Shown piece after piece: positions 3,759 to 61,457 of a DNA stretch of 64,000 nucleotides. Positions within the stretch are counted from its first letter, which is position 1; each line of letters opens with the position of its first letter. Made by a program: the position numbers and the translations under genes. The stretch is from positions 456 through 64,455 of IMG/VR virus record IMGVR_UViG_3300036804_000259. One strand, given 5' to 3'. The notes beneath the pieces were generated by a model. It was not told the DNA's origin. It made no database searches and saw only the letters and a list, made by a program, of their open reading frames with translations. This stretch comes from a virus. Lineage: Duplodnaviria > Caudoviricetes.

Positions 3759-4100
3759 ATGACTGACGAAGAATTCCAAAAGATCCTGGCTGATCCTGAG
3801 ATCCAACGCCTGATTAAGGCAAACGGATTGAAAGTGCCCATCTTCGACGACGATGATCCCTTCAACGAGCCACCAACAGCCAAACTGCAAATCGAACCAC
3901 AAATCGACCCGCAGTTAGCTCGCCAGCTTAAGCAGTACCTCGCACTTCAAGGTGGAGGAACCTTTGGTGAGCAAGTAGGCGCGAATCTCAATGCCGGATG
4001 CGCCCAATTAGCAGCCATTCTTGGCATTATTCTGTTGGTCGGACTCGGCCTGCTTGTCCTCGTAGCCTTCCTTTATGCGGTGGGCTCATCTCACCACTAG
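3759..4100 (+). CDS. membrane-anchored hypothetical protein
   Basis: C-terminal hydrophobic segment LAAILGIILLVGLGLLVLVAFLY. Confidence 0.65.
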   Translation: MTDEEFQKILADPEIQRLIKANGLKVPIFDDDDPFNEPPTAKLQIEPQIDPQLARQLKQYLALQGGGTFGEQVGANLNAGCAQLAAILGIILLVGLGLLVLVAFLYAVGSSHH

Positions 4101-5950
4101 ACCTTGACGTAAGGATCTGCGTGATCAGCCCAATAAAAGGGCGTTCCCGGCGGGAGCCCATCCACGTGTTCTTGGTGGAATAGGTGCGCGACTGGCTGGC
4201 CTCCTACTATCCGAGTATCTGGGGAGCCTAACGGAGCACCCACCTCGCTATTACTCGGCAACTCGTCGGCACTGGCTCCGGAGAATATCCCCCATGGCTT
4301 TAGATGCAGCGTGGGATAGTCTTTTGGTGCAAAGGTAGGATTCAATAGTTGTGGCCCCAATCCTGGCTGGCTGGCGTTGCCAATGGTTTCCGGCCCCTGA
4401 TTGCCGATTGGCGCTTTGCTAGGCTTAGGCGCTGCTACGGGGGTACGGTTAGGCTGCGCTACTGCCGGTGTGCGGCTAGGCGTAGCACCTGGTATAGCTG
4501 AAGGCTCGGGCGTAGCCTTTGCTATCGGAGCCGGCGCTACTTTCGTATTGTCGGCACCTTTATCGCCCTGCGGAGCCTGCGGTTCCTGAGAGCCAGGTGT
4601 TCCACGTTGATAGCCTTCGGTGATCCCTGACGATGCATTGGGGGCCTGCGCCGTTTTGACCACTGCTTCGACCCCTTTTTTGATCGCCTCGACTCCTGAT
4701 ACCATCTGCTTCGGATTATAGGGCTTCGTTTTCTGGATCCCTGCGTTGGCCATTGGCTCGAATTGTCCAACTGTATCGGTGGTAGTACCAGCTTGATTAC
4801 CGGTGCTGGTGCTGCCTTGGTCGCCCGAGGTCGTCGTAGTTGGCGAGGTCACAGACTTTACGGATGCTCCGCCCGCTTGTTCGGGCAGTATCGGATCTGA
4901 TTCCGTTACTGCGTGGCTCGGACCAAGATTATGTTTTTCAAGATCATCAGCAGCATCGTTTCCCCATCCCCTAACTTCGTCACTTAATCGCATTCTCCCG
5001 CCTTCTGGACTGGCGGCATTGAGGACTTCGCTATGCAATTCTCGTTGAAGTTGCGCTTTTAGCAGTGGGACGTTCTCGTTTAGGGCATCAACATCGAAGT
5101 TGCCGCTAACAACTTTCTTTAGCGAATCTATAATTGGCCCTGAAAGGCCGGATATGGCACCTGCGAGAGGACTTTTAGAAATGAGGTCGAACAGTGGACC
5201 AGCAGATGTCGTTCCTCCTCCTTTCCCTTCTGGAGTAAGTCTATTAACGTCTACACCCAGTTGATTTAACCGCATCAGATCGCGTGTTAATCCGAGCATA
5301 TTAGCACGCTCAGGATCTGGCGTGCCCCCAGGACGAAGAAAGTTAGCCAAATCAGTTTTACTATTTATCGCTGAAATAGCCTGCTGAAGCTTATTTAATC
5401 CCTGTGCTCCGTTAACGGCTTTAAATTTCGCCTCGATATCTTTGAGCAGTTCGATCGCGTCATGCGATTGGCCAAACATTCGCACGTCGTTAGGATTGGG
5501 AGCCACTGTTCTACCTGCCGCCTCATTCTGCGCCCTATAAGCTTGAAGCTCACCATAGCTTGCTTCGTTCAGGTCTTTGCCCCAGTTCTTATTCGTCAAA
5601 GGGTTTTGCTGCGGAAGCGTGCTTCGCAAGTGAACCATCGTATTGTGCATGTCTTCGCCGCCTAAATACCCTGAAACTTCCCCTTGCCGCGGATCCCAAT
5701 AGGTAAACTTCATGGGATCTGTAGGATCGGCTCTCATCAGCACTTGCTGGCCATTAACATTGTGAACTTCCCAAGTACGACCTAGAGCGTCGGTGTGCAT
5801 CGTGGCACTCCCGTCTTTGTTATGGAGGGTTGTCCCTAGTTGGTTATCGACATACTTTCTGTATGTTTTATTGGAAGCAGCGATCGCTTCCGGACTTGCC
5901 TCATCAGGAAGTAACTTTGGAATTCGATTGTAACGATCTCCGTCTGCCAT
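4097..5950 (-). CDS. probable internal virion/ejection protein
   Basis: 617 aa, helical plus low-complexity P/T/A, last gene of the tail operon, C-terminal LPPGTPFYW motif. Confidence 0.55.
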   Translation of the reverse strand: MADGDRYNRIPKLLPDEASPEAIAASNKTYRKYVDNQLGTTLHNKDGSATMHTDALGRTWEVHNVNGQQVLMRADPTDPMKFTYWDPRQGEVSGYLGGEDMHNTMVHLRSTLPQQNPLTNKNWGKDLNEASYGELQAYRAQNEAAGRTVAPNPNDVRMFGQSHDAIELLKDIEAKFKAVNGAQGLNKLQQAISAINSKTDLANFLRPGGTPDPERANMLGLTRDLMRLNQLGVDVNRLTPEGKGGGTTSAGPLFDLISKSPLAGAISGLSGPIIDSLKKVVSGNFDVDALNENVPLLKAQLQRELHSEVLNAASPEGGRMRLSDEVRGWGNDAADDLEKHNLGPSHAVTESDPILPEQAGGASVKSVTSPTTTTSGDQGSTSTGNQAGTTTDTVGQFEPMANAGIQKTKPYNPKQMVSGVEAIKKGVEAVVKTAQAPNASSGITEGYQRGTPGSQEPQAPQGDKGADNTKVAPAPIAKATPEPSAIPGATPSRTPAVAQPNRTPVAAPKPSKAPIGNQGPETIGNASQPGLGPQLLNPTFAPKDYPTLHLKPWGIFSGASADELPSNSEVGAPLGSPDTRIVGGQPVAHLFHQEHVDGLPPGTPFYWADHADPYVKV

Positions 5951-5951
5951 A

Positions 5952-6692
5952 TTAAGCTAATTGGAATTGATCCGGCTGCTGGAATTGAGGGACTGTCGGC
6001 CATCCTACCTGCTGATATCCAGGTTGTGAAATCGGGGCGTTGCTAACTAAATTCTGGGCATTTGGATTAGGATTCGCGAAGGGGGCGGAGCTGACCCTGA
6101 CCACAGTGGAAGGCAGATTATTTTGACCGCTGTTATCAAGCATCGCCGTAGAGAATCGATCTGCTCGGCTTTCTAATTCACTCTTTTGGGGAGCAGCATT
6201 TTGCGGAGGAGCTCCTTTTTGCGGAGGAGTGTTTTCTTGCGGAGGAGTCTCTTGGTTTGGTGGTCCCTGCAAATATTTCTCTGTGTAACCTGGAACATTT
6301 TGAAAGGGAAGGAATGGACTCGATGATTGACCCGTGGGGCTAGTAGTAATTCCACTTTGGATAAGCAGGCTTTGAATGGCCGCAGTTTTGTGCGCCGGGT
6401 CCATCGACTTATCAGCCTGAATCGCCTTAATTTGATTCTGAACGTTTTTAGCCTGCTCAATTTGAATCTGGGCATAAGCCTTCTGCAACGCGTTCTCGGC
6501 CCCTTCGCGAGGTAGCTTCGCCAGCGCGGAACCCATTTGGAGTCCCTTCTGCATGTTCTCAACAAAATCAGGGTAGTGGAACGCTGAAGCGACATTGAGC
6601 GGTGTGTTACCGCCGCCTACTATTGGTGTGATGAGATTCTGCGGTTGCAGCCGGGCTGGCAGGACTTCCCTAAATGGAGCTTGGAACGGCAT
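5952..6692 (-). CDS. probable internal virion protein (Q/P-rich)
   Basis: 246 aa, tightly packed in the operon, coiled-coil segment and short PPQ repeats. Confidence 0.55.
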   Translation of the reverse strand: MPFQAPFREVLPARLQPQNLITPIVGGGNTPLNVASAFHYPDFVENMQKGLQMGSALAKLPREGAENALQKAYAQIQIEQAKNVQNQIKAIQADKSMDPAHKTAAIQSLLIQSGITTSPTGQSSSPFLPFQNVPGYTEKYLQGPPNQETPPQENTPPQKGAPPQNAAPQKSELESRADRFSTAMLDNSGQNNLPSTVVRVSSAPFANPNPNAQNLVSNAPISQPGYQQVGWPTVPQFQQPDQFQLA

Positions 6693-6695
6693 AGG

Positions 6696-7511
6696 CTAAT
6701 AACTCACATTCTGATTCGGAGAGAGGTTGGGCGGAACAAATGTCACCCTTTGTGGAAGCGGAATGTTGCCAGGATTGTATTGGAAGTTCGGCTGGTTCTT
6801 CCCGAAGTTACTGATAGAACTCCCGAGGCCACTTAATATGCTGCCCCCCATTCCGCCGGCACCGCCAGCACCACCGCCTCCGCCAAACGACGTATTGGCT
6901 GCGTTGGCAGCGTCGATTCCCGGCGAAGAGGTCGCTACGCCTCCACTAGTTTGCGCGGCCTGAGGCATTGTCGGCGTTGCTGGGCCGACTTGAGTATCTG
7001 GATTGAGTAAGGGAGCGTTAACCGGTGCCGATTGTTGCTGACCGCCTCCGAGCAAGTTCTGGAGCCAGCTTAGGAAGTTGAAGCCGCCATCTCCTCCGCT
7101 ATCGCCGCTAAGAGGCTGGCCGACTTCGGGATTGTACGCCATCGGCGTCGCTGCGCTCCCTGACCGTGGGGCTTGCGCTGCCGCCAGCATCAGCCACCAG
7201 GGCAACACGAATTGATTGGCGGGCGAAACCGACTGGGCCGGCTGGCCGGGCGACTGTTCCTGAGTAGCTTGCTGGGGCACCGCGTAATTTGGCTGCGCAA
7301 ATGCAGATGCATCTCCGCTCAGTGGTTGGCCGACTTCTGGATTCCGACTAACTGGAGGCAGTTCTGGCTCTTTCGCGCCAATTGGCGCTCCGATCGCCGG
7401 GTTTTGGGATACCGGGACCACGGCCGGGCCAGCGCGTCGAGCACCAGAGCCGTATTGTTGCTCCCAGCCTCGGCGGAAGCCGTCCATGGAGTTCTGCAAA
7501 AAATTCGGCAT
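6696..7511 (-). CDS. Gly/Ala/Pro/Gln-rich protein, probable internal virion protein; candidate YcaO/TfuA substrate
   Basis: 271 aa, 27 nt downstream of tfuA; NPEVGQPLSGD twice; Gly-rich GGGGGAGGAGGMGGSILSGLG. Confidence 0.6.
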   Translation of the reverse strand: MPNFLQNSMDGFRRGWEQQYGSGARRAGPAVVPVSQNPAIGAPIGAKEPELPPVSRNPEVGQPLSGDASAFAQPNYAVPQQATQEQSPGQPAQSVSPANQFVLPWWLMLAAAQAPRSGSAATPMAYNPEVGQPLSGDSGGDGGFNFLSWLQNLLGGGQQQSAPVNAPLLNPDTQVGPATPTMPQAAQTSGGVATSSPGIDAANAANTSFGGGGGAGGAGGMGGSILSGLGSSISNFGKNQPNFQYNPGNIPLPQRVTFVPPNLSPNQNVSY

Positions 7512-7538
7512 GGAAGGGGAGAACCTCCGAGCCGGAGT

Positions 7539-8873
7539 TTATCCTTCAGTGCCGGCCTTGTCACGCAGCAACGCGACTGCGAGCTCGCGCAGCGTGCCGA
7601 ATCCGTTCTCCGCGATGAAATCTTCGAGCGAAGCACTGATCGTCTGACCCGAGCTTTTGGCGTGCTGGAGCAAAAGACTGGAGACGTTCATTTCTTCAGC
7701 GAATTCCAATCCGATTTCGCCACCTTGCGATTCCAACAATTGCTCGTGCCTGGCCGCGGCGTTGCACCAATAAGGGTATTGGCCATTGAGTTTGAGAAGG
7801 TCTAGCAGCCTCTGGGTTCGGCGCCTCGGCCCGCAGCGCACCATCAGAGCACGACGCAATTTCCGGAGACGAATCTCTTCGCCCAATAATCGGTAAAGTT
7901 CTCTCGCGTTCATATGGTTATCGCGCAGGAAGCGGTCGTGCTCGGCTAGCGAACGCAGCCCCTTCTTGATGTTCATCCGGCGCCACTCGGCATCGAGCTC
8001 GGCCGCGGTAAAACCGATCCGGTAGATATCCGCTAGCAGCAATCCTAGTATCCGGTTGTCTGCGGCTTCGCTCAGTTCCTCGAACTCCTGACTGTGAAGC
8101 GAGACGAACGCATCGATATCCTGCAATTTTACTTGCCGGCCACCCACCGTGACTGAGCGATCACGTTCGAACTGGGCGCTAAACAAAAGGGAGAGCGATT
8201 CCTCGGTCGGCTTGATTGCACCTTCGATTGGCTTGAGATCGCGAAACGTGCAGAGTAACTCAAGCGCGTCGATCGCTTTCTGGTTATGAGCCTTAAGAAC
8301 ATCAAGGAGTACATCATTGAGGGATCCAAGCGACCGTTCAGTCCGTTCAGTCCAATGGATTGCTCCAGCCTGGGCGAAGATCTGCTCCGCGGTTTCCTCG
8401 TCAAATACTTCGTTTTCAAAGCCCTTGAGGAGCGCCCCTCGCACGTTAACCAAGGGGACCGTTGTAGCGAAGAGTGAACCGTCTGGGAGCGGAGCGTAGG
8501 TCGAGGCTACTTCGCTCTCATCGTGAATGACGCCTTCGTAGTACCATTCGAAAATTTTGCCGCAACCGATCATGCCAAAATTAGCGATGTCGGCAGCTCG
8601 TAAGGCACCCATCGAACTCGCTCCGTAAACAGCCTTGACTCCAGGGATCTGAAGTGCCCATATCACCTCTTTGTGCCAGATACTCAGAGACTGGTGGAAG
8701 GTGCCGTCGATAATCAAGACGTGGCTCGGCTGCAACTCCATCAAGTCGCTAATGAAGTCGCCCTGTTTCAAGGGCGGCTTGATGATCGCCTCGGGCACCT
8801 GTTCACGGATCGAATCGTGATCAAGGCTGGGGCCGGCATAGACCAATACTCGTTCCTGCTCAGTCGGTTCCAT
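7539..8873 (-). CDS. tfuA: TfuA-like protein with long C-terminal helical extension
   Basis: VYAGPSL, PPLKQGD, IIDGTFHQSLSIWHKEVIWAL, YGASSMGALRAAD, GMIGCGKIFEWY, DESEVA, PLVNVR, QKAIDA motifs of the TfuA core. Confidence 0.93.
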   Translation of the reverse strand: MEPTEQERVLVYAGPSLDHDSIREQVPEAIIKPPLKQGDFISDLMELQPSHVLIIDGTFHQSLSIWHKEVIWALQIPGVKAVYGASSMGALRAADIANFGMIGCGKIFEWYYEGVIHDESEVASTYAPLPDGSLFATTVPLVNVRGALLKGFENEVFDEETAEQIFAQAGAIHWTERTERSLGSLNDVLLDVLKAHNQKAIDALELLCTFRDLKPIEGAIKPTEESLSLLFSAQFERDRSVTVGGRQVKLQDIDAFVSLHSQEFEELSEAADNRILGLLLADIYRIGFTAAELDAEWRRMNIKKGLRSLAEHDRFLRDNHMNARELYRLLGEEIRLRKLRRALMVRCGPRRRTQRLLDLLKLNGQYPYWCNAAARHEQLLESQGGEIGLEFAEEMNVSSLLLQHAKSSGQTISASLEDFIAENGFGTLRELAVALLRDKAGTEG

Positions 8874-10137
8874 CGGCGGCTTTAGCTACCTCCTTTTCCA
8901 GCCGTTTTTGAGCGCGGCCATTGGTCATCCAATTTTCGCACCAAGCCCCTTCCAATTGAGGAGCCACTGCTTTGACAATCGTAAGACTCGCGTTCGCGAA
9001 TTCTTCGACCCGCAACACCCGGTAGTAAAGCTGATCGATTCCGCAGGTCGCTAGCCGACCCGTTAAAGCGCTGAACTCCTCGGCCAAATTTGCGAATTCG
9101 TAGCCGTCGCAAATGAACTGCCTCGCGAATTCAGGCCAGTTAGCCTTGAAGAAGGGCAGATTATTCAACGATGCGATAAGGCGCTTTGAACTGGACTGCT
9201 TCATTAAAATAAAATCACGTCGGTAGAGATCGTCACGGGCACCGGAGATGTAACAGAGTCGGCTCTGGACAGCTTCTGTGATCGCCCTCTGTGCTGCCAC
9301 TCTCGGGTTCAGATGAGCCCCGTAGCCGCCGAAAAAGCCTACATTGTCACCGCCGAATAAGGCGCAGCCAAGCACGGGAATGCCGAGGTCGTTTTCTAAA
9401 TAATGCAGAAACGGGTAAAGGCCGGCTTTCCGGATCAACGAAATAGACCACTCCAGTTCGGGAGGCAGATCAATCAGCGGCACCCGAACCGGAAGCGTTC
9501 CGACTAACTCCCGCACATACTGGTTAATGGTCCAGGCGTCTCGTTCGACCAGTTCATAGAAAGCCTGCAAAAGTGCGTCCTCCAGAGTGATGCCGCTCGC
9601 GAGGCCATTGCTGGATTGCTGCACATCGAGAAACTGTTGCCTGGCGCGGTCTTCCAGCCAGATCATATGCGAAGGCATCCAGACGGTGCTCGCAAATCCT
9701 GGTCGAATGATGACCTTCTCGACCAGCTCCCAGGCGATCGGCGTGTCCTCGTCAAGGACGTTATCTCTGGCCAGCGGATAGGCTTCCAGAGGCAATAGAT
9801 CACTTGAATCCCGGTTCTGTTGTAGCTGCCGGTGACTGCAAAGCTTAAACTCTGAATTCGGATTCTCAGCGGCCCAGAACTCGAGCCCTTCGATGATCGA
9901 GCCGGCGCAAGCCAACCGGTCGTAGGCATTCTTGCCGGCCGTCACCGAAATCGTATGGGCGTCCGGTCGGTGACAAATCCAAACCGGAATACCAATTACG
10001 TCGAGATTAGTAATTTGCCGGTAGGAAGTGATGCCGTAGGAGAGGAGCCGGGAGTACGGTAGCCGGCAGATAGTTTCGGCTAGCTGAGTCCTAGCTTGAG
10101 AGCGAGCCTCGTTGCCCAAAAAAAGCAGGCGATCCAT
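8860..10137 (-). CDS. ycaO: YcaO-family enzyme, TfuA-associated (thioamide-forming type)
   Basis: GIT...ITNLDVIGIPV, RP..TISVTAGK, SIIEGLE, SSNGLASG..ELVERDA, GYGAHL, RAITEAVQSR..ISGARDDL; no PxPxP tail; overlaps tfuA by 14 nt. Confidence 0.93.
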   Translation of the reverse strand: MDRLLFLGNEARSQARTQLAETICRLPYSRLLSYGITSYRQITNLDVIGIPVWICHRPDAHTISVTAGKNAYDRLACAGSIIEGLEFWAAENPNSEFKLCSHRQLQQNRDSSDLLPLEAYPLARDNVLDEDTPIAWELVEKVIIRPGFASTVWMPSHMIWLEDRARQQFLDVQQSSNGLASGITLEDALLQAFYELVERDAWTINQYVRELVGTLPVRVPLIDLPPELEWSISLIRKAGLYPFLHYLENDLGIPVLGCALFGGDNVGFFGGYGAHLNPRVAAQRAITEAVQSRLCYISGARDDLYRRDFILMKQSSSKRLIASLNNLPFFKANWPEFARQFICDGYEFANLAEEFSALTGRLATCGIDQLYYRVLRVEEFANASLTIVKAVAPQLEGAWCENWMTNGRAQKRLEKEVAKAADGTD

Positions 10138-10995
10138 TCAAGGGAGGGTAGCGTAATTCAAGCGCCAAGTCGCTAGATCCATCAATATCCGTACTAGCGG
10201 CTTAAAAGAGGCGTGCGCTTCGAGCCAGCAAGCTGCCTGCGCTCCGTAGCGTTTGTAGAGCTTTCTGAGCGTCCGTGGAGCTCGGGCAATCATCCAGTAG
10301 CGGAATCGCTTCCATCGTGGGTCGTAGGCTCCGTAGGCGGAGCGGGCGAGCCAGCAAAAGGCGACCACGGCAAGTGCAGAGACGGCGCTGCCGGCACCGC
10401 TCAGAATGTTGCCGGTTTGCGCGTTGGCCGCGTTGGCCGACATGACACTTTGTTGTGCCGCCATGTTTTCGGCGAACTGGCTCTCTTGGACCTTGTAGGC
10501 GTAGTTCGCCTGGTTCCAATTGTTTTGGCCGGCAATGTTGGAGAGCGCGATTTGCGAAGCATCCGCGCCGGAGAGGCCGAAAGTCCTCGGACGGAAAGTA
10601 TCGTTAGCAGTCTGAAATTGATTCATCAGCTGCTGCTGATATTGCATCTGGTTCAGCCCCAGATTGCGGGCCACGTTCGCCATCCCGGTTGTGCCGGTGC
10701 CAAGACTCCAGCCGCCCGTGGCGCCCACCGCATTGGTCAGTCCGCTGCGCGTCCACAGATTTTGCAATTGGGGAGTAACCGCTCCGCCCATCTGCGTTTT
10801 GAGATTGTTCAGAAACGTCTGTTGCGAACTGTAAAGCTGCGGATAGCGGGACTTAAAATCGGCGTCGCTCAGACCATAGGCGGTCGTGTCCATGCCGGTC
10901 GCAGTCTGCTCGATCTGTTGCGGATTAGCCGGAACGAAAGCCGGCATGGCTCCTGGCAACTGCGGTTTTGGGAGGGATGGAGCGGTTGTCGACAT
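10138..10995 (-). CDS. probable internal virion protein with C-terminal CFI-box-CTERM-like domain
   Basis: Q/A/N-rich body, then FCWLARSAYG..PRWKRFRYWM..AP..LRKLYKRYG..AA; stop abuts the ycaO ATG. Confidence 0.65.
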   Translation of the reverse strand: MSTTAPSLPKPQLPGAMPAFVPANPQQIEQTATGMDTTAYGLSDADFKSRYPQLYSSQQTFLNNLKTQMGGAVTPQLQNLWTRSGLTNAVGATGGWSLGTGTTGMANVARNLGLNQMQYQQQLMNQFQTANDTFRPRTFGLSGADASQIALSNIAGQNNWNQANYAYKVQESQFAENMAAQQSVMSANAANAQTGNILSGAGSAVSALAVVAFCWLARSAYGAYDPRWKRFRYWMIARAPRTLRKLYKRYGAQAACWLEAHASFKPLVRILMDLATWRLNYATLP

Positions 10996-11372
10996 CAGGT
11001 TACCTCGAAAACCTTCAGGTCTTGCTCTACGAGTCCGACCTTACGCAGTAACTTCGGCGAAGCCAATACGCTTTTATCGTGGACCAACCAGAGAGGGTTC
11101 CCGAACATTCGCGTGGTCTGAATCGCTACTTTTGCGACCTCGTAAAATTCGCGGGCGCTCATCACATTCGGATGAACCGTTGGCCTGATACAAACGTGTG
11201 GGGTTGCGTAATAGAACGCGACCGGTTTGCCGTCCAATCTGAGCATGAAGATCGGAAAGACCGGTTCAAGCTTATGCTCGCAAGCCTCTGCTAATGAGAC
11301 TAGCCCCCAGAGCTCGGCCGCATGCAGATTGTTGATCCGCACCTGGTCTATTTGGAGTACCGATCCACCCAT
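10995..11372 (-). CDS. hypothetical protein, possibly degenerate GNAT-fold virion assembly protein
   Basis: 125 aa alpha/beta ORF preceding the ejection-like genes; fold is a positional guess. Confidence 0.4.
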   Translation of the reverse strand: MGGSVLQIDQVRINNLHAAELWGLVSLAEACEHKLEPVFPIFMLRLDGKPVAFYYATPHVCIRPTVHPNVMSAREFYEVAKVAIQTTRMFGNPLWLVHDKSVLASPKLLRKVGLVEQDLKVFEVT

Positions 11373-11512
11373 AGTTTTGTTCGCAACTGAGCCTCGGCGA
11401 AATTGATATTCGAGCGCATCTCAGGACCGTGGAGTTCGAGTTCGCGCTTCGAGTAAGGCCGGCTCCTCACTCGGATCCACCACCAACGCAATTTTCTTAA
11501 GAGCGTTTTCAT
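11348..11512 (-). CDS. small basic hypothetical protein
   Basis: MKTLLRKLRWWW start, ATGA-coupled to the upstream stop. Confidence 0.5.
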   Translation of the reverse strand: MKTLLRKLRWWWIRVRSRPYSKRELELHGPEMRSNINFAEAQLRTKLWVDRYSK

Positions 11513-12324
11513 TGGTATTTGATGATGTGCCACATGGTGCAAAAAGGTGGCATGATACTGAATTGCTGCTGACCCGGTCCCAATGGTTTACCGGTCATGT
11601 CCCGTATCGGCAATGTGAAATAGGAAATCGAGCCGGCACCTGGCGGCTGCAAATTCGGAATGTCGGTCCCAGGCAAACTAGGTGGATTCGCATTCGCGTA
11701 GTTCGGAAACGAAATCCGGATTGGCACCATTAATCCCGGCAGATCATTCCCAATCAGAAGACGGTTCAGTTGACTTCCGCCGACACTCGCGACTCCGCTA
11801 GGATTGGCGGTAGCCGGCGGTTGACCAGGAGCGGTGGGAATCGAACCAAGAGCGACCTCTTCCATAGTCGTAAATCCCGCGGCGTTGAAGAAAATGCAGG
11901 CACCAGGAGGAAGATTAAATGACGTCTCGCCGTCGCCCGGCCCCCAAGTTTCGCCTACCGCCTGAAATAGCCGGCTATAGGTGTATCTAGAAACCCATCT
12001 TCCATCACAGAGTAGCCAGTTGGCCGGCTGCGAATTACCGCCAAAAAGCGTGATTGTACCAACGGCCGCGCCCTGTTCGCCCGGCTGATATTGACCGGTT
12101 GTAGGATCAAACCACCACCATTCATTGCTGGAAGTATCGAACCAGGGACCGATATCGTGTACCGGCTTGCTTGAACCAACTTGGCCGATCAGAAAAGACT
12201 GCTCTAATTGGCCGGCAAGCGATTGACCGAGCAAATTGAAAAAGTCCGGCAAATAACCGCCCCAGCCTTGGGGAGCAGCCGACACGGTCAGATCGACAAA
12301 ATCAGTGGGGATTGGCACCGCCAT
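11509..12324 (-). CDS. tail collar domain protein (paralogue 3)
   Basis: VGTITLFGG..PANWLLCDG..VSR.TYSRLFQAVGETWG.GDG.TSFNLP; C-terminal MPPF...IIKY. Confidence 0.88.
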   Translation of the reverse strand: MAVPIPTDFVDLTVSAAPQGWGGYLPDFFNLLGQSLAGQLEQSFLIGQVGSSKPVHDIGPWFDTSSNEWWWFDPTTGQYQPGEQGAAVGTITLFGGNSQPANWLLCDGRWVSRYTYSRLFQAVGETWGPGDGETSFNLPPGACIFFNAAGFTTMEEVALGSIPTAPGQPPATANPSGVASVGGSQLNRLLIGNDLPGLMVPIRISFPNYANANPPSLPGTDIPNLQPPGAGSISYFTLPIRDMTGKPLGPGQQQFSIMPPFCTMWHIIKYQ

Positions 12325-12328
12325 AGTC

Positions 12329-13051
12329 TCACAAATATTTGATTACGAAATTCGCCGCGGCGAACGGAGGCATTACCGGTATGCGTTTTTGGTTAGCCCC
12401 AAGAATGTTGCCGTTTTCATCCACGACAGGGTAGTAGTAGCCGCCGCTCCCAGCTCCTTGGGTATTGGGAACGTTGAGGTTGTTATCGATCATGTCCGCG
12501 CTGATGTAGACCAAATCGACTTGTAACGCCGGCATTGCATCAGTGGGAATCACAGTGGTCTGCGCACCGCCGCGAGCGTTGATACCCCACACGGGAGAAC
12601 TACCAGGTGGCTGAAAAAAGAACCCTGGTACATTTACGAAAAAGACGGCCGGCGGAGGCAACAGGAAATTACTGCCTGCCCCTCCCCAAGTATGACCGAT
12701 GGCTGCAAACAACTCTGGATAGGAATTAGAACTAAGCTGCTGCCCTGCGCATACCATCCAATTATTCGGAATGTTACCCTTACCTCCCCAGATTGCCACC
12801 GTGCCAATCGGACAACCCTGAACGGTAGGGTTATATCCGTAACCGGTCCAATAATACCACTCAGTACCATTTAGCCACGGCCCAACGTTAGTGCTAGGTT
12901 TGTTCCCTCCGATTCGCCCAGTTAACAAACTAACGCTCATCTTTCCCTCTAAAGACGAGGCGATCAGATTTAGGACATCAGTCAAATAGTTGCCCTTAAA
13001 ATTCGCTGGCGGCGGATTAATCGTGATATCGACTGGAACAGGAACGGCCAT
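12329..13051 (-). CDS. tail collar domain protein (paralogue 2)
   Basis: PIGTVAIWGG..IPNNWMVCAG...YPELFAAIG.TWGG...FLLP; MPPF...VIKY. Confidence 0.88.
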   Translation of the reverse strand: MAVPVPVDITINPPPANFKGNYLTDVLNLIASSLEGKMSVSLLTGRIGGNKPSTNVGPWLNGTEWYYWTGYGYNPTVQGCPIGTVAIWGGKGNIPNNWMVCAGQQLSSNSYPELFAAIGHTWGGAGSNFLLPPPAVFFVNVPGFFFQPPGSSPVWGINARGGAQTTVIPTDAMPALQVDLVYISADMIDNNLNVPNTQGAGSGGYYYPVVDENGNILGANQKRIPVMPPFAAANFVIKYL

Positions 13052-13053
13052 AG

Positions 13054-13869
13054 CTATTGATATTTAATTATATGATTAGCAGTGGCAAAAGGAGGCATAG
13101 TCGGGAACTGACTTTGATCGGCAGCTAACACATTTAACTGGGCGCCTTCTTTGCTCTGCACCTGGTAATTGTAAGCTTGAACTGAAGTATCGCTGTAGGG
13201 AACAGGTAATCCGACTCCGGCGATTCCCGGCTGTTGTTTTTGCGCGTTTATGAACGGCACCAGCAATTGCATCGGCGGCAAATTAGCCGCGGTTAGCAAT
13301 GGTGCCAATTGCGAGCCACCAATGCAAGCCACTCCGTACGGAGCGGAGGTTACTCCGCTTACCGGTGCGCCCATTCCAGGTGGCACATTCGGAGATAAGA
13401 CCACCGATGGATCAGGAACAAAGCCGGGAGCATTTATAAAGGCGACTCCGCCAGGCGGTAACTTGAAGGTGGTGGAATAATCACCTGAGCCCCAGGTCGT
13501 ACCGATCACCTGAAAAAGCTCTTGATAGGTCGTTCGCGAAACTTCGCTTCCGTCGCAAACCAGCCAATTTGCGGGCGTCGATTGCCCACCCCACATCATG
13601 ACAATTCCAATAGGGACGCCATCCAAGCCTTGGACGTAAGCGCCTTTCTGCGGATTCCAAAACCACCAAGAATTCCCGTTTGACCACGGCCCTACGTCTG
13701 CGCCCGGCAAAATCCCGTTTAATTGGCCAAAGATTAACGCGCTCGTGTCGACAGAGGGATCGAACTTCGCCGCTATCGAACTGCCAATCGCATTGAGCAA
13801 TTCCTGCACGCTCTCAGGTTTAACCTTAGGTTCTTTCTCAACATAGAAAGCGATTGGATAGGAGGCCAT
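13054..13869 (-). CDS. tail collar domain protein (paralogue 1)
   Basis: PIGIVMMWGG..PANWLVCDG..VSRTTYQELFQVIGTTWGSGD..TFKLP; MPPF...IIKY. Confidence 0.88.
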   Translation of the reverse strand: MASYPIAFYVEKEPKVKPESVQELLNAIGSSIAAKFDPSVDTSALIFGQLNGILPGADVGPWSNGNSWWFWNPQKGAYVQGLDGVPIGIVMMWGGQSTPANWLVCDGSEVSRTTYQELFQVIGTTWGSGDYSTTFKLPPGGVAFINAPGFVPDPSVVLSPNVPPGMGAPVSGVTSAPYGVACIGGSQLAPLLTAANLPPMQLLVPFINAQKQQPGIAGVGLPVPYSDTSVQAYNYQVQSKEGAQLNVLAADQSQFPTMPPFATANHIIKYQ

Positions 13870-13871
13870 AA

Positions 13872-15320
13872 TTATTGGCGAGCCCAACTCATCGAGAAAG
13901 TTAATTGCAAAGTGCCTAACGGCGCCAGGGCGTGCGGTTGATCAAAATAATAGGTATCGATTTGGTTAGTCGTATCGGGAGTGCCATAGCCGAAACTCAA
14001 CATATAGAGTCCGGTTTGGTCCATGGCGATGGTGCCGCTCTGGGTCAGATTAAAACTGCCCGAGACATAGCTACTTGGCAGACAGGGCGCAACAAAGATC
14101 TGCTCCGTCGGCGCCGGGATCCGAGTAGGACTGCCGTTTGTGCCCACGGAGAGGCCTCCTGCGGTCGAGAGCCAAATTTGGCCGGCAACACTCGGTTCGT
14201 CGTAGCCGACGAATATATCGGCCGTGGGGCTAGGAGCTGCGCTTTGGCCATAGGGATTGACAAGAAAAATGCCCTGGTTACCGCGGAAAAACCATCCGTT
14301 CATGTCGACATTGAGCGTGCCGCCGGTCGGACTCGCGCTACTCACAAAGGTGAGTTGTAGACTGACCGTGGTTGATGGGCCGTGCGTCGAATCGGTAAAC
14401 GTGGACCAATCCAATACTTTCCATGTCCCGTTATAAGGCGCGTAACTAGAGCCGGCCAGGACAAGCGTGCTGCCGGGAATGACCGGCATCGTGCCGGAGA
14501 CGGTGACCGCGAGTTGATTTAATTGGGTTGAACTGGAGAGGTATTGCCAAATCGAGTAACTGATCGGCAAATTGCTGATGCTGATCGTCAGCGGCGTATT
14601 AGGAAAATAAGGAGAAATGACTCCTGGCCCCTGGCCATAATCGAAATTGACCTGGAGTTGATAAGTGACCTGCAATTGTTGGCCATTCGGAAGTTCATCA
14701 CTCGGGCCTTGCAAGATTATGGGAGCAGTGAGAAGCACCCGGCTAAAAAGATTCGCTCCGCCAACCGATTGCGGTGAGAACCCTAGCTCGGTGTAAGTGA
14801 TCCCAACCGATTCGGGCGTGAAGAGGAAGGTTCGATAGAGCGTGATTGAACCTAAGGCGACATTTGAACCGCAGGCACCCGGTGTAGTGAGATAATCAAC
14901 GGTCCGTTTAATCTCGTTGCCCAGTACGGCTTGATTGACGTACTGGACCACGAAGTGCGTCGCCGTTGATATGGTCAGGCTTATCGAAAGCGTGACCTGG
15001 GTCGGACTTACGTAGGCAATGATTTTCGCGATTTGGCCAGTATCGAAAACTACGTTCGCGGCTAAATCTCCGGTGCTAAAGCAGGCGGTGGCCGCGGTAA
15101 GAGCGGTGCCGGCAACTGTCGCAGTCGTCGCCGGATCGCGGGTGGTAGCCTGCGTGCCGGTGCCCACAGCGCAAGCTGCAAAAAGCTCATTGTAAAGAGT
15201 GGAGGCAACATAATCTAGTCCCTGATCCAGAATGAGATTGTCTTGCCAAGGTCGCGTCTCAATCAACTTGCCACCGGCTCGGACCGCGACTTGCACTCTA
15301 CCTTTTAGTTGCGCATTCAT
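13872..15320 (-). CDS. virion tail protein (beta-rich)
   Basis: NLILDQGLD..CAVGTG, ELGF..LFSR..L....QLQVTYQL pattern seen in phage tail proteins; S/T-rich. Confidence 0.6.
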   Translation of the reverse strand: MNAQLKGRVQVAVRAGGKLIETRPWQDNLILDQGLDYVASTLYNELFAACAVGTGTQATTRDPATTATVAGTALTAATACFSTGDLAANVVFDTGQIAKIIAYVSPTQVTLSISLTISTATHFVVQYVNQAVLGNEIKRTVDYLTTPGACGSNVALGSITLYRTFLFTPESVGITYTELGFSPQSVGGANLFSRVLLTAPIILQGPSDELPNGQQLQVTYQLQVNFDYGQGPGVISPYFPNTPLTISISNLPISYSIWQYLSSSTQLNQLAVTVSGTMPVIPGSTLVLAGSSYAPYNGTWKVLDWSTFTDSTHGPSTTVSLQLTFVSSASPTGGTLNVDMNGWFFRGNQGIFLVNPYGQSAAPSPTADIFVGYDEPSVAGQIWLSTAGGLSVGTNGSPTRIPAPTEQIFVAPCLPSSYVSGSFNLTQSGTIAMDQTGLYMLSFGYGTPDTTNQIDTYYFDQPHALAPLGTLQLTFSMSWARQ

Positions 15321-15562
15321 GCCGTATAAGTGCCGCTTTTAAACCTGGTTGAGCAGCCAACCGCCGCGGCCGCTCCGCTGAGAGCCGTAGCAGCAAAATA
15401 AGCTCCGCTCGCCAAAATCAGGCTAGTGTTGAGCGTCTCGCTGATCAGCGGTACTAACACGATCGGACTTGGCGGGATCGTGAGTCCCAAAGAGTCATAC
15501 CCACTATCTGGCGTCCGCGGGCTCCAAACTTTCTGGAAGGGTTGAAAGATTCTCGCTTTCAT
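15317..15562 (-). CDS. hypothetical protein in tail operon
   Basis: ATGA overlaps at both ends. Confidence 0.6.
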   Translation of the reverse strand: MKARIFQPFQKVWSPRTPDSGYDSLGLTIPPSPIVLVPLISETLNTSLILASGAYFAATALSGAAAAVGCSTRFKSGTYTA

Positions 15563-17448
15563 GTTGCGGTGATCGGAGCAACCGGGATTGCACAGACTTT
15601 CGGCGGCGGCAAACAGCCGATCGCGGTAACGATATTAGTCTTATCTTCTTCGCTTGGAGTGCATTGGCCTATGCCGGCTTGCGGATAGGCATCGACAAAA
15701 AGTCGGACTTCCCGTATACCCATCCGACCTTGCCAATTGATCAAGAGCTGGAATCCCTTGTCGACATTGTGAATGTATTTGCTCTCCACTTCGCAAGTGT
15801 CGGCACAATTGTCGTTTTCGGCCTTTGCTCCGCTGAACTCTGGCGTCCGGATCGTGCGTGTCTGTGGCTTGAAAGTCTGGATAAGAGTGTCGGTAGTGAG
15901 CCCTTGACTCGTCCAAATCGGATAGTTCGCATTGCCCGGCAGACCTTCCTCCGCCGAAAGCAGTAACTCATAAGCGAGCCGGTAATGACCTTTGATGCCG
16001 GCGTAGTAAATCTGAATCGTGACATTGCCGATTAGTTCTACGATATCGATCTCCGCATATTTGAAACGCGAGAGCTCGCCGACTTGACTGACCTCGAAAA
16101 TTTTGGTTTCCCAACTGCAAGCGATCGGCGTCTCGTTATAATCAACTCGCCGGCCGATGAAATCTTCCCAGAGCATAATGTTGCACGTCTGCCCATGCGA
16201 ATTCACGACTGGGTTACAGGCGTAGGAAAGCTCAAAGCAGCGCGGTACGTCTTGGATCTCGCCGGTTGCGAACTGAACTGGATAGGTGCCAGTCCAGATG
16301 CCGACCCAGGCCGGTGGCGGACTCGCTTGTTGCCCTTGCATGCCTGATGCTACGCTTCCGTCCATCACCCAACAGTGGCGATTCCATCGGCTTCCGCTCG
16401 GAACGGCAACGAGCATAAAGTTCTCGAAGTTGACCGCGCAAATCCCGCGTCGGTCCGGAGACATGTTCATCTTCGAACGCAACATCTCGCCGTCCTGCGG
16501 CGTGACCTGGCTTGAACGATATTGGTTGTAAGCCATATCGAAACTGACCAATCCAACCTCGGAAAACATCCAGGGTTGGCCGAACTGTTGCAGAGGCGAA
16601 AAAGGAGAGACGCTTCCGTAGTCCTTCGAGACAATGATTTGAAAATTCGGCGTATTCTGCCAAGTCGTTCGATCCAGAATGCCCGATTGCAGACCGGTCA
16701 CCGAGAAAGGAGTGAAGGCGAGCAAGGATGGCATGCTCTGTGACTGCGGATCGCCCGGCGTTTCCAGCAAACCGGTACAGCTTTCCGGCAGTTTGAATCC
16801 ATCGGCCTCGGCCAAATACGTGCCTTCGGTGAAAGAATTCGGATTGAGAAGATCACTCGCGTAGATGGTTTCGTTATAGGCCACCCAGAGCCTCGAGCCG
16901 GAGTAGACCATCATCTGTCCAGTCGGCAATTGATACCACGGTGCGCCGGCCTGATTATGACCACTCTGCTGTGGCGCCGTGGTCGAGGTCGCGGTATAAA
17001 ACGCACTCGCAGTGTAACCGTCCTGCATTAGGAGCGTATCGACCGGAGTGGGGAGCAAGGTTAGACTTCCGTCTAAATTTAGTTGAACGGCTTGTCTGGC
17101 CTGACAGAAATAGATTCGCGGACTGTATCTGTAAAAACTGACGTTCGGGAGTTGGACGTAGGTCGTAAATGGATAGACCGAGAAATAAATGTTGCCGTCG
17201 ATCGACCAAACGAGCTGCTCCTTTTGTCGGTATGGTCGGTAAATACAGAGGCCTTGAGCGCGTTTACCCGGCAGCATGAAAAGCAGGCTTCGACCTGGTC
17301 GCGTTTGCATCACGCCCCCGCGGTTCACCAAATTTTCGGACCAATTATAGCCGCCTTGGCCTATATCGGTTGGAGAAACCAGGGTGTTGCACCCTCGAAT
17401 CCAAGAACGGTCTTGAACCGGTACACGGCCAGTTTGGGGATAGGCCAT
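15559..17448 (-). CDS. probable tail nozzle/tubular protein B (P22 gp10/T7 gp12-like beta-propeller)
   Basis: 629 aa; ENLVNRGGVMQTRPG start, RLWVA...IYASD, W/Y-rich beta strands; first gene of the tail operon. Confidence 0.6.
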   Translation of the reverse strand: MAYPQTGRVPVQDRSWIRGCNTLVSPTDIGQGGYNWSENLVNRGGVMQTRPGRSLLFMLPGKRAQGLCIYRPYRQKEQLVWSIDGNIYFSVYPFTTYVQLPNVSFYRYSPRIYFCQARQAVQLNLDGSLTLLPTPVDTLLMQDGYTASAFYTATSTTAPQQSGHNQAGAPWYQLPTGQMMVYSGSRLWVAYNETIYASDLLNPNSFTEGTYLAEADGFKLPESCTGLLETPGDPQSQSMPSLLAFTPFSVTGLQSGILDRTTWQNTPNFQIIVSKDYGSVSPFSPLQQFGQPWMFSEVGLVSFDMAYNQYRSSQVTPQDGEMLRSKMNMSPDRRGICAVNFENFMLVAVPSGSRWNRHCWVMDGSVASGMQGQQASPPPAWVGIWTGTYPVQFATGEIQDVPRCFELSYACNPVVNSHGQTCNIMLWEDFIGRRVDYNETPIACSWETKIFEVSQVGELSRFKYAEIDIVELIGNVTIQIYYAGIKGHYRLAYELLLSAEEGLPGNANYPIWTSQGLTTDTLIQTFKPQTRTIRTPEFSGAKAENDNCADTCEVESKYIHNVDKGFQLLINWQGRMGIREVRLFVDAYPQAGIGQCTPSEEDKTNIVTAIGCLPPPKVCAIPVAPITAT

Positions 17449-24636: not shown

Positions 24637-24665
24637 TTGCATGACCTGCGCAATTATCCTACAAT
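24637..24665 (+). promoter_or_regulatory. sigma70-like promoter of helicase, leaderless geometry
   Basis: TTGCAT-17nt-TACAAT-7nt-GTG(24673). Confidence 0.65.
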
Positions 24666-24672
24666 GCTCGCT

Positions 24673-55470: not shown

Positions 55471-55471
55471 T

Positions 55472-60874: not shown

Positions 60875-61457
60875 GGATGCCGACCGACAACACAAAACGA
60901 CCAGTCGCAATGTGCAGCGTCCCATTCGGTTGGCCCTGAGCCAACTCTACCAATTGTCGCACGGTGGTATCAAACGATACCACCGTGCCGGCCGGCGCTG
61001 CTGCTGCTGTTAACGGAGGCGCGACCGAGGAAACTAGTTTTTCCTGCACCGGAGCCGGCGCTGGAGACACTTTTTTATTAAGGTCAATGTCCATGCCGGT
61101 AAACACGCTCGGCACGGCTAGCGCGGGATTAGCGGCCTTAAACTCCGATACTGGATCCGGCGGCGGAATGTTTTTTCCCTTTAATGTCCGCTGATCAGGA
61201 CTCGGCCGCGGATTGGTCACTGGATTCTGGACCTGCGACCGGATTTTAGTCGTCTCATTGCGAATAACGCCGCCTCGAATATTGACTCCGCGGTTAGCGA
61301 GACTTGGTGGTTTATTGGGCGAACTTGGCGAACTAGGCGCCGGACTTGGCGAACTCGAAGTGACCGGCGCGGGCGGTTGGCCGTTACTCACCGCCCGCGC
61401 TGCGGCCAGCTCGTCGGCGACTCCTGCATTCAACCACTTGTCTATATCACCGCTCAT
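60825..61457 (-). CDS. Pro/Ser-rich hypothetical protein
   Basis: ATGA-coupled to the recombinase; overlaps the HTH gene end. Confidence 0.6.
   Translation of the reverse strand: MSGDIDKWLNAGVADELAAARAVSNGQPPAPVTSSSPSPAPSSPSSPNKPPSLANRGVNIRGGVIRNETTKIRSQVQNPVTNPRPSPDQRTLKGKNIPPPDPVSEFKAANPALAVPSVFTGMDIDLNKKVSPAPAPVQEKLVSSVAPPLTAAAAPAGTVVSFDTTVRQLVELAQGQPNGTLHIATGRFVLSVGILKASKSPESHQAAPKS

What the first reader, a model, noticed from the sequence alone, without database searches (positions are those of the whole stretch)
7539..10137. Phage-encoded YcaO-TfuA thioamidation pair embedded in the virion/ejection operon
Seen: full-length ycaO (425 aa) and tfuA (444 aa) with recognisable family motifs, overlapping by 14 nt. 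The ycaO ATG abuts the stop of a virion-like gene and the next virion-like gene starts 27 nt after tfuA, all in one minus-strand run (17448 to 4097) of nozzle, tail-collar and internal proteins. No transporter, peptidase, dehydrogenase, ThiS/ThiF or leader-core precursor lies nearby. Established: TfuA-associated YcaOs install backbone thioamides using ATP (methyl-coenzyme M reductase thioglycine, thioviridamide-type RiPPs), and TfuA releases sulfide from thiocarboxylated ThiS. Inference: the phage thioamidates its own virion/ejection proteins (for protease resistance, stability or evasion of protein-sensing defences) or a host protein late in infection. I know of no described phage system of this kind.
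Basis: partly seen in the sequence, partly recalled or inferred. Interest (0 to 1): 0.93.

Follow-up and report, generated by a model that had tools for sequence, protein, structure and literature searches.

The report
Phage-encoded YcaO-TfuA thioamidation pair
An uncultured soil phage carries, among its tail and probable DNA-ejection genes, an intact pair of enzymes that in cells swap a backbone oxygen for sulfur in proteins, and it probably uses them on the alanine-rich tail of the phage protein encoded just upstream, which would be the first such modification known in a virus.

Summary
ycaO (8860-10137, 425 aa) and a long tfuA (7539-8873, 444 aa) are intact, overlap by 14 nt and lie in one minus-strand run of tail genes in a 64-kb IMG/VR phage record. 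The pair is not an assembly artefact. 25 other viral loci carry ycaO, and tfuA follows it in all 21 loci that extend far enough.

In all 25 loci the gene upstream of ycaO ends in a stretch of small residues. In 21 of them a Cys-initiated "CWVAR" domain follows.

This tail module is a large phage family: 1,853 representative clusters, including gp25 of the cultured phage HMO-2011. It mostly occurs without YcaO: 48 of 52 sampled loci lack it. So the stretch alone is not a substrate signature. In the YcaO lineages it is shifted towards Ala/Val, and it is kept in the four loci that lost the CWVAR domain.

The target is still inferred. No ThiS/ThiF is encoded, so sulfur must come from the host. Four literature searches found no description of a phage YcaO-TfuA. 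This scan has found the same system before on other DNA (33 notes, at least 18 genomes).

The parts
8860..10137 (-). ycaO, 425 aa; ATP-dependent backbone-activating enzyme of the TfuA-associated type
   Evidence: PF02624 1.2e-45; TIGR00702 129 bits, above its cut-off of 75.65; MJ1094 6pe3. Motif residues E83, E86, S176-N177-G178, E195, E198-R199-D200, R284, E288, Q291 and R301-D302-D303 are invariant in 84 sequences.
8229..8873 (-). tfuA N-terminal catalytic domain (residues 1-215)
   Evidence: PF07812 7.9e-33; 6xp8 by sequence 1.5e-21; AF2 model against 6xp8: Foldseek 3.4e-12 and VIA Z 24.5, rmsd 2.3 over 200 residues.
7539..8228 (-). tfuA C-terminal helical extension (residues about 216-444, plus stop), conserved in the phage clade
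   Evidence: Aligned across 16 phage TfuAs. Modelled mostly at pLDDT 70-90. Only weak matches to SurA/PEB4/trigger-factor chaperone modules, Z 7.1-7.6, which is within noise for helical folds.
10138..10995 (-). Upstream 285-aa gene, the candidate substrate; translationally abutted to ycaO
   Evidence: 67-75% identical in three relatives, more conserved than YcaO at 47-62%. A homologous tail is present upstream of ycaO in 25 of 25 viral loci.
10357..10443 (-). Small-residue, Ala/Val-rich stretch (residues about 185-213) of the upstream protein; proposed thioamidation site
   Evidence: Sequence. Best 19-residue Kyte-Doolittle window is 1.84, at residues 197-215. Ala fraction in the 25 residues before the Cys is 0.377 in YcaO-linked tails and 0.165 in YcaO-less tails.
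10141..10356 (-). Cys-initiated basic C-terminal 'CWVAR' domain (residues 214-285)
   Evidence: C214, W215, A217, R218, G222, W228, R232, Y247 and G251 are nearly invariant in 60 proteins. 41% identical to the tail of HMO-2011 gp25. 1,853 representative clusters match the profile.
10995..11372 (-). 125-aa protein with a GNAT-like fold, directly upstream of the candidate substrate gene
   Evidence: Atlas features score 0.97 to viral clusters in which 47-67% of members carry PF00583; structure TM 0.62-0.73 to GNAT clusters. No Pfam hit at 0.01. Present in 22 of 25 YcaO loci.
6696..7511 (-). Downstream 271-aa low-complexity protein with the NPEVGQPLSGD repeat; alternative candidate substrate
   Evidence: Sequence. 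Related motifs occur only in the three closest relatives; distant loci have unrelated low-complexity proteins here.
11509..13887 (-). Three paralogous tail-collar-domain genes
   Evidence: PF07484 E 1.2e-16, 1.4e-12 and 1.5e-19; PHROG tail and tail-fibre families.
13872..15320 (-). 482-aa protein with a tail-fibre-like N-terminus
   Evidence: phrog_4176 'tail fiber protein', 3.3e-14, residues 3-64.
15559..17448 (-). 629-aa probable tail hub / nozzle protein
   Evidence: AF2 model of low confidence (pLDDT 44.6). The five best Foldseek matches are podophage tail complexes (Pa223 3.3e-6, Pan3, Pam1, SU10, VP1). A P22 in-situ gp10-gp26 entry (8eap_D) scores 3.4e-3.

Best explanation
The phage encodes a working YcaO-TfuA backbone-thioamidation pair that is transcribed with its tail and late genes. 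By analogy with the characterised systems, YcaO uses ATP to phosphorylate a backbone amide oxygen. TfuA supplies sulfide by hydrolysing a thiocarboxylated ThiS-type carrier, which here must come from the host. The result is one or several C=S bonds.

The most likely substrate is the Ala/Val-rich small-residue stretch (residues about 185-213) of the 285-aa protein encoded directly upstream. That protein belongs to a large family of phage proteins with a 'small-residue stretch + CWVAR domain' tail. By gene position it is probably an internal or ejection protein whose tail meets the host membrane.

Shown: the genes, their intact motifs, their conservation and the invariable gene order. Inferred: the activity, the sulfur source, the target and the purpose. 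My odds are about 0.85 that the pair is an active thioamidase and about 0.45 that the upstream tail is its target.
For: Enzymes:
- Family and structure matches.
- YcaO motif residues are invariant in 84 sequences.
- A distinct clade of 70 rows (the window's YcaO and 69 database clusters) is separated from 14 cellular relatives with SH-aLRT 100.
- TfuA follows YcaO in 21 of 21 loci with room for it.

Target:
- In 25 of 25 viral YcaO loci the gene before ycaO ends in the small-residue stretch. In L022 an HNH-like ORF lies between the two.
- Four loci (L008, L030, L032, L034) lost the CWVAR domain but kept the stretch as the very C-terminus, the position of a RiPP core.
- The stretch is compositionally shifted where YcaO is present: Ala 0.377 against 0.165, Val 0.088 against 0.016, Gly 0.164 against 0.242; 19 against 47 distinct tails; Mann-Whitney p 8e-10, not corrected for phylogeny.

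Precedents:
- YcaO+TfuA thioamidate a thioamitide core iteratively; the characterised shunt product carries thioamides at Val2-Met3 of a Ser-Val-Met-Ala stretch (passages of PMC8153245).
- A YcaO thioamidates a folded protein, uL16 (abstract and passages of PMC13063428).
Against: - The stretch + CWVAR module is not specific to the enzymes. 48 of 52 sampled viral loci with at least 1.5 kb downstream have no YcaO. The complete genome of phage HMO-2011 has the module on gp25 but no YcaO or TfuA.
- On the tail-domain tree the YcaO label needs only 2 changes and one origin is not excluded. The adjacency and the Ala shift may therefore reflect one or two historical events, and the p-value overstates the support.
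- No leader or RRE-like recognition element was identified.
- The scores are below the McrA equivalog cut-offs: 124 against 365 for YcaO, 135.7 against 235.2 for TfuA.
- No sulfur carrier is encoded.
- The stretch is hydrophobic enough to be a membrane helix (KD 1.84). That alone could explain why it is conserved.
- There are no expression or proteomic data.
Confidence: 0.45

Rival explanations
1. The pair thioamidates a different phage protein, for example the low-complexity proteins encoded downstream (6696-7511 with its NPEVGQPLSGD repeat, 5952-6692, 4097-5950) or another virion component. Under this reading, adjacency to the upstream gene is only the historical insertion site.
For: tfuA is followed after 27 nt by Gly/Pro/Gln-rich proteins. 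Every YcaO locus with room has such a protein after tfuA. The archaeal enzyme acts on a Gly (thioglycine in McrA, PMC5589413 passages).
Against: The NPEVGQP-type motif is seen only in the three closest relatives (L006, L007, L009). The downstream proteins of distant YcaO loci share no recognisable motif, whereas the upstream tail is shared by all 25.
Confidence: 0.2
2. The target is a host protein. The enzymes act late in infection, or are themselves packaged and ejected, to alter a host machine, as cellular YcaO does with ribosomal protein uL16.
For: A YcaO that modifies a folded cellular protein exists (PMC13063428). The phage relies on host sulfur chemistry anyway. The genes sit in the block that in podophages holds ejected proteins (gene order).
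Against: The uL16-type enzymes have no TfuA nearby (PMC13063428 Discussion). The window's YcaO scores 34.5 bits against a cut-off of 700 for that equivalog. The strict coupling to one phage gene in 25 of 25 loci is not expected for a host target. The host is unknown, so nothing could be tested.
Confidence: 0.15
3. The genes are a RiPP-type moron. They mature a small secreted or released thioamide peptide from an unannotated short ORF, or from the cleaved-off tail of the upstream protein.
For: Most bacterial YcaO-TfuA pairs are assigned to thioamidated RiPP clusters (PMC8120280 abstract and passages). In four loci the stretch is the C-terminus, like a core peptide.
Against: No protease, transporter or further tailoring enzyme was found among ten neighbours. 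The small ORFs near the pair in relatives are Cys-rich, zinc-ribbon-like and not conserved. The conserved 64-86-aa ORF after the hub gene is not Ala-rich across lineages. The pair sits inside a structural operon, not at a moron position.
Confidence: 0.07
4. The pair does something other than thioamidation (another YcaO chemistry such as azoline or amidine formation at the invariant Cys or at Ser/Thr), or it has lost catalysis and serves as a structural or assembly factor.
For: Scores are below every NCBIfam equivalog cut-off. TfuA has a 230-residue extra domain of unknown role.
Against: All YcaO motif residues are invariant across 84 sequences. TfuA association goes with thioamide formation in the systems I read about: McrA (PMC5589413) and thioamitides (PMC8153245). 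The invariant Cys is also present in the YcaO-less tails and absent from four YcaO-linked tails. The SagD-type model scores 85 against a cut-off of 219.
Confidence: 0.1

Closest known systems
Archaeal YcaO-TfuA that forms thioglycine in methyl-coenzyme M reductase McrA (MJ1094, PDB 6pe3/6peu; M. acetivorans TfuA, PDB 6xp8; NCBIfam TIGR03266 / NF033432)
   Same: Best sequence and structure matches for both proteins. The two genes are adjacent. The substrate is a segment of a protein, not a free peptide.
   Different: Below both equivalog cut-offs. TfuA is twice as long, with a helical C-terminal domain. Viral, not archaeal. No McrA. Probable target is an Ala-rich stretch, perhaps with several sites.
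Thioamitide biosynthesis (TsaH YcaO + TsaI TfuA; thiostreptamide S4, thioviridamide family)
   Same: YcaO+TfuA install several thioamides iteratively in a short core that includes small aliphatic residues, and thioamidation protects peptides from proteolysis (passages of PMC8153245).
   Different: No leader-type precursor, no AviCys, dehydration or methylation enzymes among the neighbours. The candidate substrate is part of a 285-aa phage protein and is followed by a 72-aa domain.
E. coli YcaO, which thioamidates ribosomal protein uL16 at Met82
   Same: A YcaO acting on a full-length protein and recognising tertiary structure. The target was found by in-silico pairing (PMC13063428).
   Different: That enzyme has no TfuA nearby. 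The window's YcaO scores 34.5 bits against a cut-off of 700 for NF040716.
gp25 (N386_gp25, 706 aa) of Puniceispirillum phage HMO-2011 and the wider 'small-residue stretch + CWVAR domain' family
   Same: Same C-terminal module (41% identity over residues 213-273). Same position after the tail-fibre genes and before large unannotated late genes.
   Different: The stretch is Gly-rich rather than Ala-rich. No YcaO or TfuA in the complete genome. No family in Pfam or PHROGs.

Membership tests
YcaO superfamily (PF02624 / TIGR00702) | YcaO domain above the curated cut-off, with the conserved acidic, Ser-Asn-Gly and ExxER motifs | tested here: met
   156.7 bits against a cut-off of 25.7; TIGR00702 129.3 against 75.65; motif residues invariant in 84 sequences. 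That these residues bind ATP/Mg is recalled knowledge. Only E202A of EcYcaO is documented in a paper I read (PMC13063428 figure legend), and I did not obtain the residue-by-residue alignment to it.
TfuA family (PF07812) | TfuA domain above the cut-off and the TfuA fold | tested here: met
   113.2 bits against a cut-off of 30; VIA Z 24.5, rmsd 2.3 over 200 residues to 6xp8.
TfuA-associated thioamide-forming YcaO systems | ycaO and tfuA adjacent and co-conserved | tested here: met
   14-nt overlap; tfuA follows ycaO in 21 of 21 loci with room.
TfuA-associated thioamide-forming YcaO systems | Thioamide actually formed on a substrate, dependent on ATP and sulfide or ThiS-COSH | not testable with these tools
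   Needs biochemistry or mass spectrometry.
McrA-glycine thioamidation equivalogs (TIGR03266, NF033432) | Score above the equivalog cut-off | tested here: not met
   124.3 against 365 and 135.7 against 235.2.
uL16/S12-type YcaO (NF040716) | Score above the cut-off; no TfuA partner | tested here: not met
   34.5 bits against 700. A TfuA partner is present, whereas the uL16 enzymes have none (PMC13063428).
Azoline-forming TOMM cyclodehydratase (TIGR03604 SagD) | Score above the cut-off | tested here: not met
   85.1 bits against 219.25. The usual partner genes were not looked for by name; the ten neighbours scanned gave no Pfam family other than Collar, YcaO and TfuA.
Thioamitide-type RiPP gene cluster | Short leader-core precursor plus dehydration, AviCys and methylation enzymes | tested here: not met
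   Ten neighbouring proteins have no such Pfam family, and no short conserved Ala-rich ORF was found.
P22 gp7-type ejection protein (PF25688), for the upstream protein | Match to the Pfam model | tested here: not met
   This was only an Atlas lead: score 0.85, family on 13% of one cluster. 0 of 60 family members match at E 0.01 or better.
CFI-box-CTERM-type Cys-initiated sorting domain (resemblance suggested by earlier notes; the name is recalled) | Match to an NCBIfam model | tested here: inconclusive
   No NCBIfam family at E 0.01 or better for the upstream protein. I did not verify that such a model is in the library.

The most novel reading that the evidence does not exclude
A whole clade of soil podophages converts the membrane-facing, Ala-rich tail of an ejected virion protein into a poly-thioamide segment, using host ThiS sulfur. 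This would be a thioamitide-like element built into a structural protein. It would be the first thioamide, and the first YcaO chemistry, in any virus. It would also be a third class of natural thioamidated protein, after McrA and uL16. The neighbouring GNAT-like gene may be part of the same maturation cassette.
Probability: 0.35. Interest if true: 0.9.

Novelty: new variant of a known kind. Interest (0 to 1): 0.8.

Why it matters
Backbone thioamides are among the rarest protein modifications. Among the papers read here they are documented on two proteins (McrA and uL16) and in a few peptide natural products.

A conserved viral system would show that phages use this chemistry on their own particles. 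It would give a compact, testable substrate-enzyme set of three or four genes. It would also point to an unrecognised property of the proteins that open the host envelope, such as stability, hydrogen bonding in the membrane or protease resistance.

The 'stretch + CWVAR' tail is itself an undescribed and very common phage module (1,853 representative clusters). Its YcaO-linked and YcaO-less forms offer a natural comparison.

Tried and rejected
1. Complex prediction of YcaO (alignment A6) with the 110-residue tail of the upstream protein (A4): score 0.00 in both runs, verdict 'no answer'. It counts neither for nor against binding.

The genomic context of the database YcaO hits, including the 131,760-base contig, could be read only where search for related loci gave loci.

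I used a closer subset, A5: all 11 hits lie on contigs already known to carry YcaO. I then used a degenerate DNA pattern.

4. The 629-aa model is poor (pLDDT 44.6). Its Foldseek matches (TM 0.26-0.36 normalised by the query) are only a hint.

5. The TfuA C-terminal domain has no convincing fold match. The SurA/PEB4/trigger-factor rows at Z 7.1-7.6 are below the level the tool calls meaningful for helical folds.

6. The P22_gp7 lead from the Atlas was not confirmed.

7. Pfam and PHROGs give nothing for eight CWVAR proteins, including HMO-2011 gp25.

8. No cultured phage in the 50,697-record collection has a YcaO relative at E 1e-5 or better or similar DNA. Only HMO-2011 has the CWVAR tail there.

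9. The genome-contig scan found no prophage copy, only four cellular YcaOs at 26-33% identity. The host therefore stays unknown. My ORF listing of two of those high-GC loci was too noisy to read precursors.

10. No tRNA gene in the window.

11. No RNA holder was listed among the sequencing runs, so nothing can be said about expression. Outside run X1, no listed contig piece bridges the ycaO/tfuA junction or the tfuA/downstream junction by 31 letters or more.

12. The 81-aa ORF 15317-15562 has an Ala-rich end in this window, but its homologues elsewhere do not. It was rejected as a precursor.

13. Papers PMC8084935, PMC6535971 and PMC4167974 are not held. The catalytic residues of TfuA and the ATP-site residues of YcaO are therefore not cited from print.

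The similarity-network and neighbourhood tables of PMC13063428 and PMC8120280 might list viral entries that I could not see.

15. The literature searches were judged from listings and abstract starts only.
Full report
**What is there.** The window is bases 456-64455 of a 64,455-base IMG/VR virus record, linear, CheckV completeness 87%. On the minus strand, ORFs run without a strand change from 17448 to 4097. Two of them are ycaO (8860-10137, 425 aa) and tfuA (7539-8873, 444 aa). They overlap by 14 nt. The stop of the upstream ORF (10138-10995) abuts the ycaO ATG, and the next ORF (6696-7511) starts 27 nt after tfuA.

**The enzymes.**
- YcaO matches PF02624 over 324 of 325 positions (E 1.2e-45), and TfuA matches PF07812 over all 119 positions (E 7.9e-33).
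- The best NCBIfam models are the two McrA-glycine thioamidation equivalogs. Both scores are far below the cut-offs (124 against 365; 135.7 against 235.2). The uL16/S12-type and SagD-type models score still lower.
- A profile of 84 YcaO sequences matches the thioamidating enzyme MJ1094 (PDB 6pe3) end to end at 2.5e-65.
- The residues of the acidic, SNG, ExxER(D), R..E..Q and RDD motifs are invariant in all 84 sequences. That these are the ATP/Mg site is recalled knowledge. The papers describing it are not held. Only the inactive E202A variant of EcYcaO is documented in what I read.
- An AF2 model of TfuA (pLDDT 81) superposes residues 7-213 on M. acetivorans TfuA with Z 24.5 and rmsd 2.3 over 200 residues (Foldseek 3.4e-12).
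- Residues about 216-444 form a helical domain that is conserved in all 16 phage TfuAs aligned. It gives only weak chaperone-like matches (SurA, PEB4, trigger factor, Z 7.1-7.6), which I treat as a lead only.

**Phage context.**
- Three paralogous tail-collar genes lie at 11509-13887 (PF07484).
- 13872-15320 has a tail-fibre N-terminus.
- 55472-56998 carries the podophage GP4 fibre domain PF23140.
- The 629-aa product of 15559-17448 gave a poor model (pLDDT 44.6). Its five best Foldseek hits are nevertheless all podophage tail machines, and a P22 in-situ gp10-gp26 entry follows at 3.4e-3.
- The three genes after tfuA are low-complexity and have no family. 'Ejection or internal protein' rests on gene position only.
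- No ThiS or ThiF is present in the record, and no tRNA gene in the window.

**Not an artefact, and conserved.**
- A second assembly, Logan's, of what may be the source sample spans 6600-11100 with no difference. Short contigs from two other soil studies bridge the upstream-gene/ycaO junction.
- Twenty-five other IMG/VR loci encode a relative at 27-61% identity. Four of them (L026-L029) are identical over this region.
- tfuA directly follows ycaO in all 21 loci that extend far enough.
- In the 5.8-billion-protein collection, 72 clusters at 33% identity or more (E 8.5e-52 or better) stand apart from the cellular hits, whose full-length members score about 1e-38 or weaker.
- I built a quick tree of the window's YcaO with 69 of the 72 clusters and 14 more distant hits of my own choosing. 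Three short fragments were left out. The two groups separate with SH-aLRT 100. The grouping was defined by rank in the hit list, not by independent knowledge of origin.
- No cultured phage among 50,697 records has such a YcaO. No prophage copy was found in one genome per GTDB species.

**The candidate substrate.**
- The upstream 285-aa protein is more conserved than the enzymes: 67-75% against 47-62% identity.
- It ends in a Gln-rich region, then a stretch of small residues (about 185-213), then an invariant Cys that opens a basic 72-residue domain, CW[VIL]AR..G...W..FR.W...AP.....Y...G.
- Every one of the 25 viral YcaO loci has a gene with this stretch directly before ycaO. In L022 an HNH-like ORF is inserted between them.
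- Four loci (L008, L030, L032, L034) lack the CWVAR domain, and there the protein ends with the stretch.
- This repeats what earlier agents of this scan concluded on other genomes.

- The tail is not peculiar to YcaO phages. Residues 213-273 match gp25 of the cultured marine podophage HMO-2011. gp25 sits after the tail-fibre genes and before three large unannotated genes. That complete genome has no YcaO or TfuA.
In the 80 loci delivered, all 81 matches lie in the expected protein context.
- Of the 52 loci with at least 1.5 kb downstream, only 4 carry ycaO-tfuA.
- A profile of the tail finds 1,853 representative clusters, 1,078 of them at E 1e-10 or better. In nearly all of the 150 listed hits the domain lies at the C-terminus, in proteins of 84-1000 aa.
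- So the module is a general phage device. A small-residue stretch before the Cys is not by itself a mark of a thioamidation substrate.
- The stretch does differ between the two groups. In YcaO-linked tails (19 distinct) it is Ala/Val-rich and more hydrophobic. In YcaO-less tails (47 distinct) it is Gly/Leu-rich.
- On a tree of the 72-residue domain, the YcaO-linked tails need only two changes of label, and one origin is not excluded. The contrast therefore amounts to one or two evolutionary events, and its p-value should not be taken at face value.

**Mechanism proposed.** The pair is made with the late proteins. TfuA releases sulfide from host thiocarboxylated ThiS. YcaO activates backbone amides in the Ala/Val-rich stretch of the upstream protein with ATP, perhaps at several sites as in thioamitides (PMC8153245). 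The modified tail is then built into the particle or ejected with the DNA. The long TfuA domain may hold the hydrophobic stretch. Only the genes, their conservation and their order are shown. The rest is inference.

**Rivals.** These are another phage protein as target, a host protein as target, a released peptide, or other chemistry. The NPEVGQPLSGD repeat of the downstream gene is confined to the closest relatives. That makes it a poorer universal target.

**A possible fourth gene.** The 125-aa gene at 10995-11372 has a GNAT-like fold by the Atlas but no Pfam hit.
- It precedes the candidate substrate gene in 22 of 25 YcaO loci.
- It was found in 0 of 56 YcaO-less CWVAR loci with at least 600 nt upstream.
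- Two distant YcaO-linked loci with upstream DNA (L066, L101) also lack it.
- The link may simply reflect shared ancestry of these phages.

**Novelty.** Four full-text searches (listings and abstract starts only) showed no paper on a phage YcaO-TfuA. Two key surveys never use the words phage or virus (PMC8120280 and PMC5589413), and neither does the uL16 paper. Supplements could not be read.

Within this scan the system has been reported before on other DNA: 33 notes in at least 18 genomes. The enzymes are of a known kind. The viral setting, the protein target and the long TfuA make this a new variant.

Noticed in passing
window 10141-10443; loci L049-L128; L048 (HMO-2011 gp25): A C-terminal module, 'Gln-rich region, small-residue stretch, then a Cys-initiated CWVAREVYG...FR.W...P.WF...Y..GE.FA domain', closes proteins of about 84-1000 aa. 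It is found in 1,853 representative clusters, has no Pfam or PHROG family, and among 50,697 deposited phage records occurs only in HMO-2011.
   Followed up: partly
window 10995-11372: A 125-aa protein with a GNAT-like fold (Atlas only; no Pfam hit and no obvious acetyl-CoA glycine motif by eye). It precedes the candidate substrate gene in 22 of 25 YcaO loci and in none of 56 YcaO-less CWVAR loci.
   Followed up: partly
L022 5502-6041: An ORF with an HNH-type Cys/His motif (by eye; not scanned against a family library) is inserted between the Ala-rich-tail gene and ycaO in one relative. It is the only break in the otherwise constant gene order.
   Followed up: no
L007 7259-7564; L008 7220-7477: Two relatives carry unrelated small Cys-rich (zinc-ribbon-like) ORFs between ycaO and tfuA, where this window has a 14-nt overlap.
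   Followed up: no
window 15317-15562: A small ORF (81 aa) lies between the hub-like gene and the tail-fibre-like gene. A 63-86-aa ORF occupies the same place in the 7 relatives listed, with a conserved PQTGMPPIY...NPFGPQ motif in the six more distant ones.
   Followed up: partly
window 52141-56998: The 1109-aa protein has a partial GH42 beta-galactosidase-like hit (3.2e-7). The adjacent 508-aa protein carries the podophage GP4 fibre I gp80 domain (9.1e-25) and a PHROG 'head protein' hit.
   Followed up: no
window 24637-26229 and 61454-62578: Replication and recombination genes: a ResIII/DEAD-type helicase (1.3e-29) and a RecT-family protein (2e-13).
   Followed up: no
L035 7119-8180: The most distant viral YcaO locus has a shorter TfuA (353 aa, HMM E 1.2e-42). 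The long C-terminal domain is therefore not universal among phage copies.
   Followed up: no
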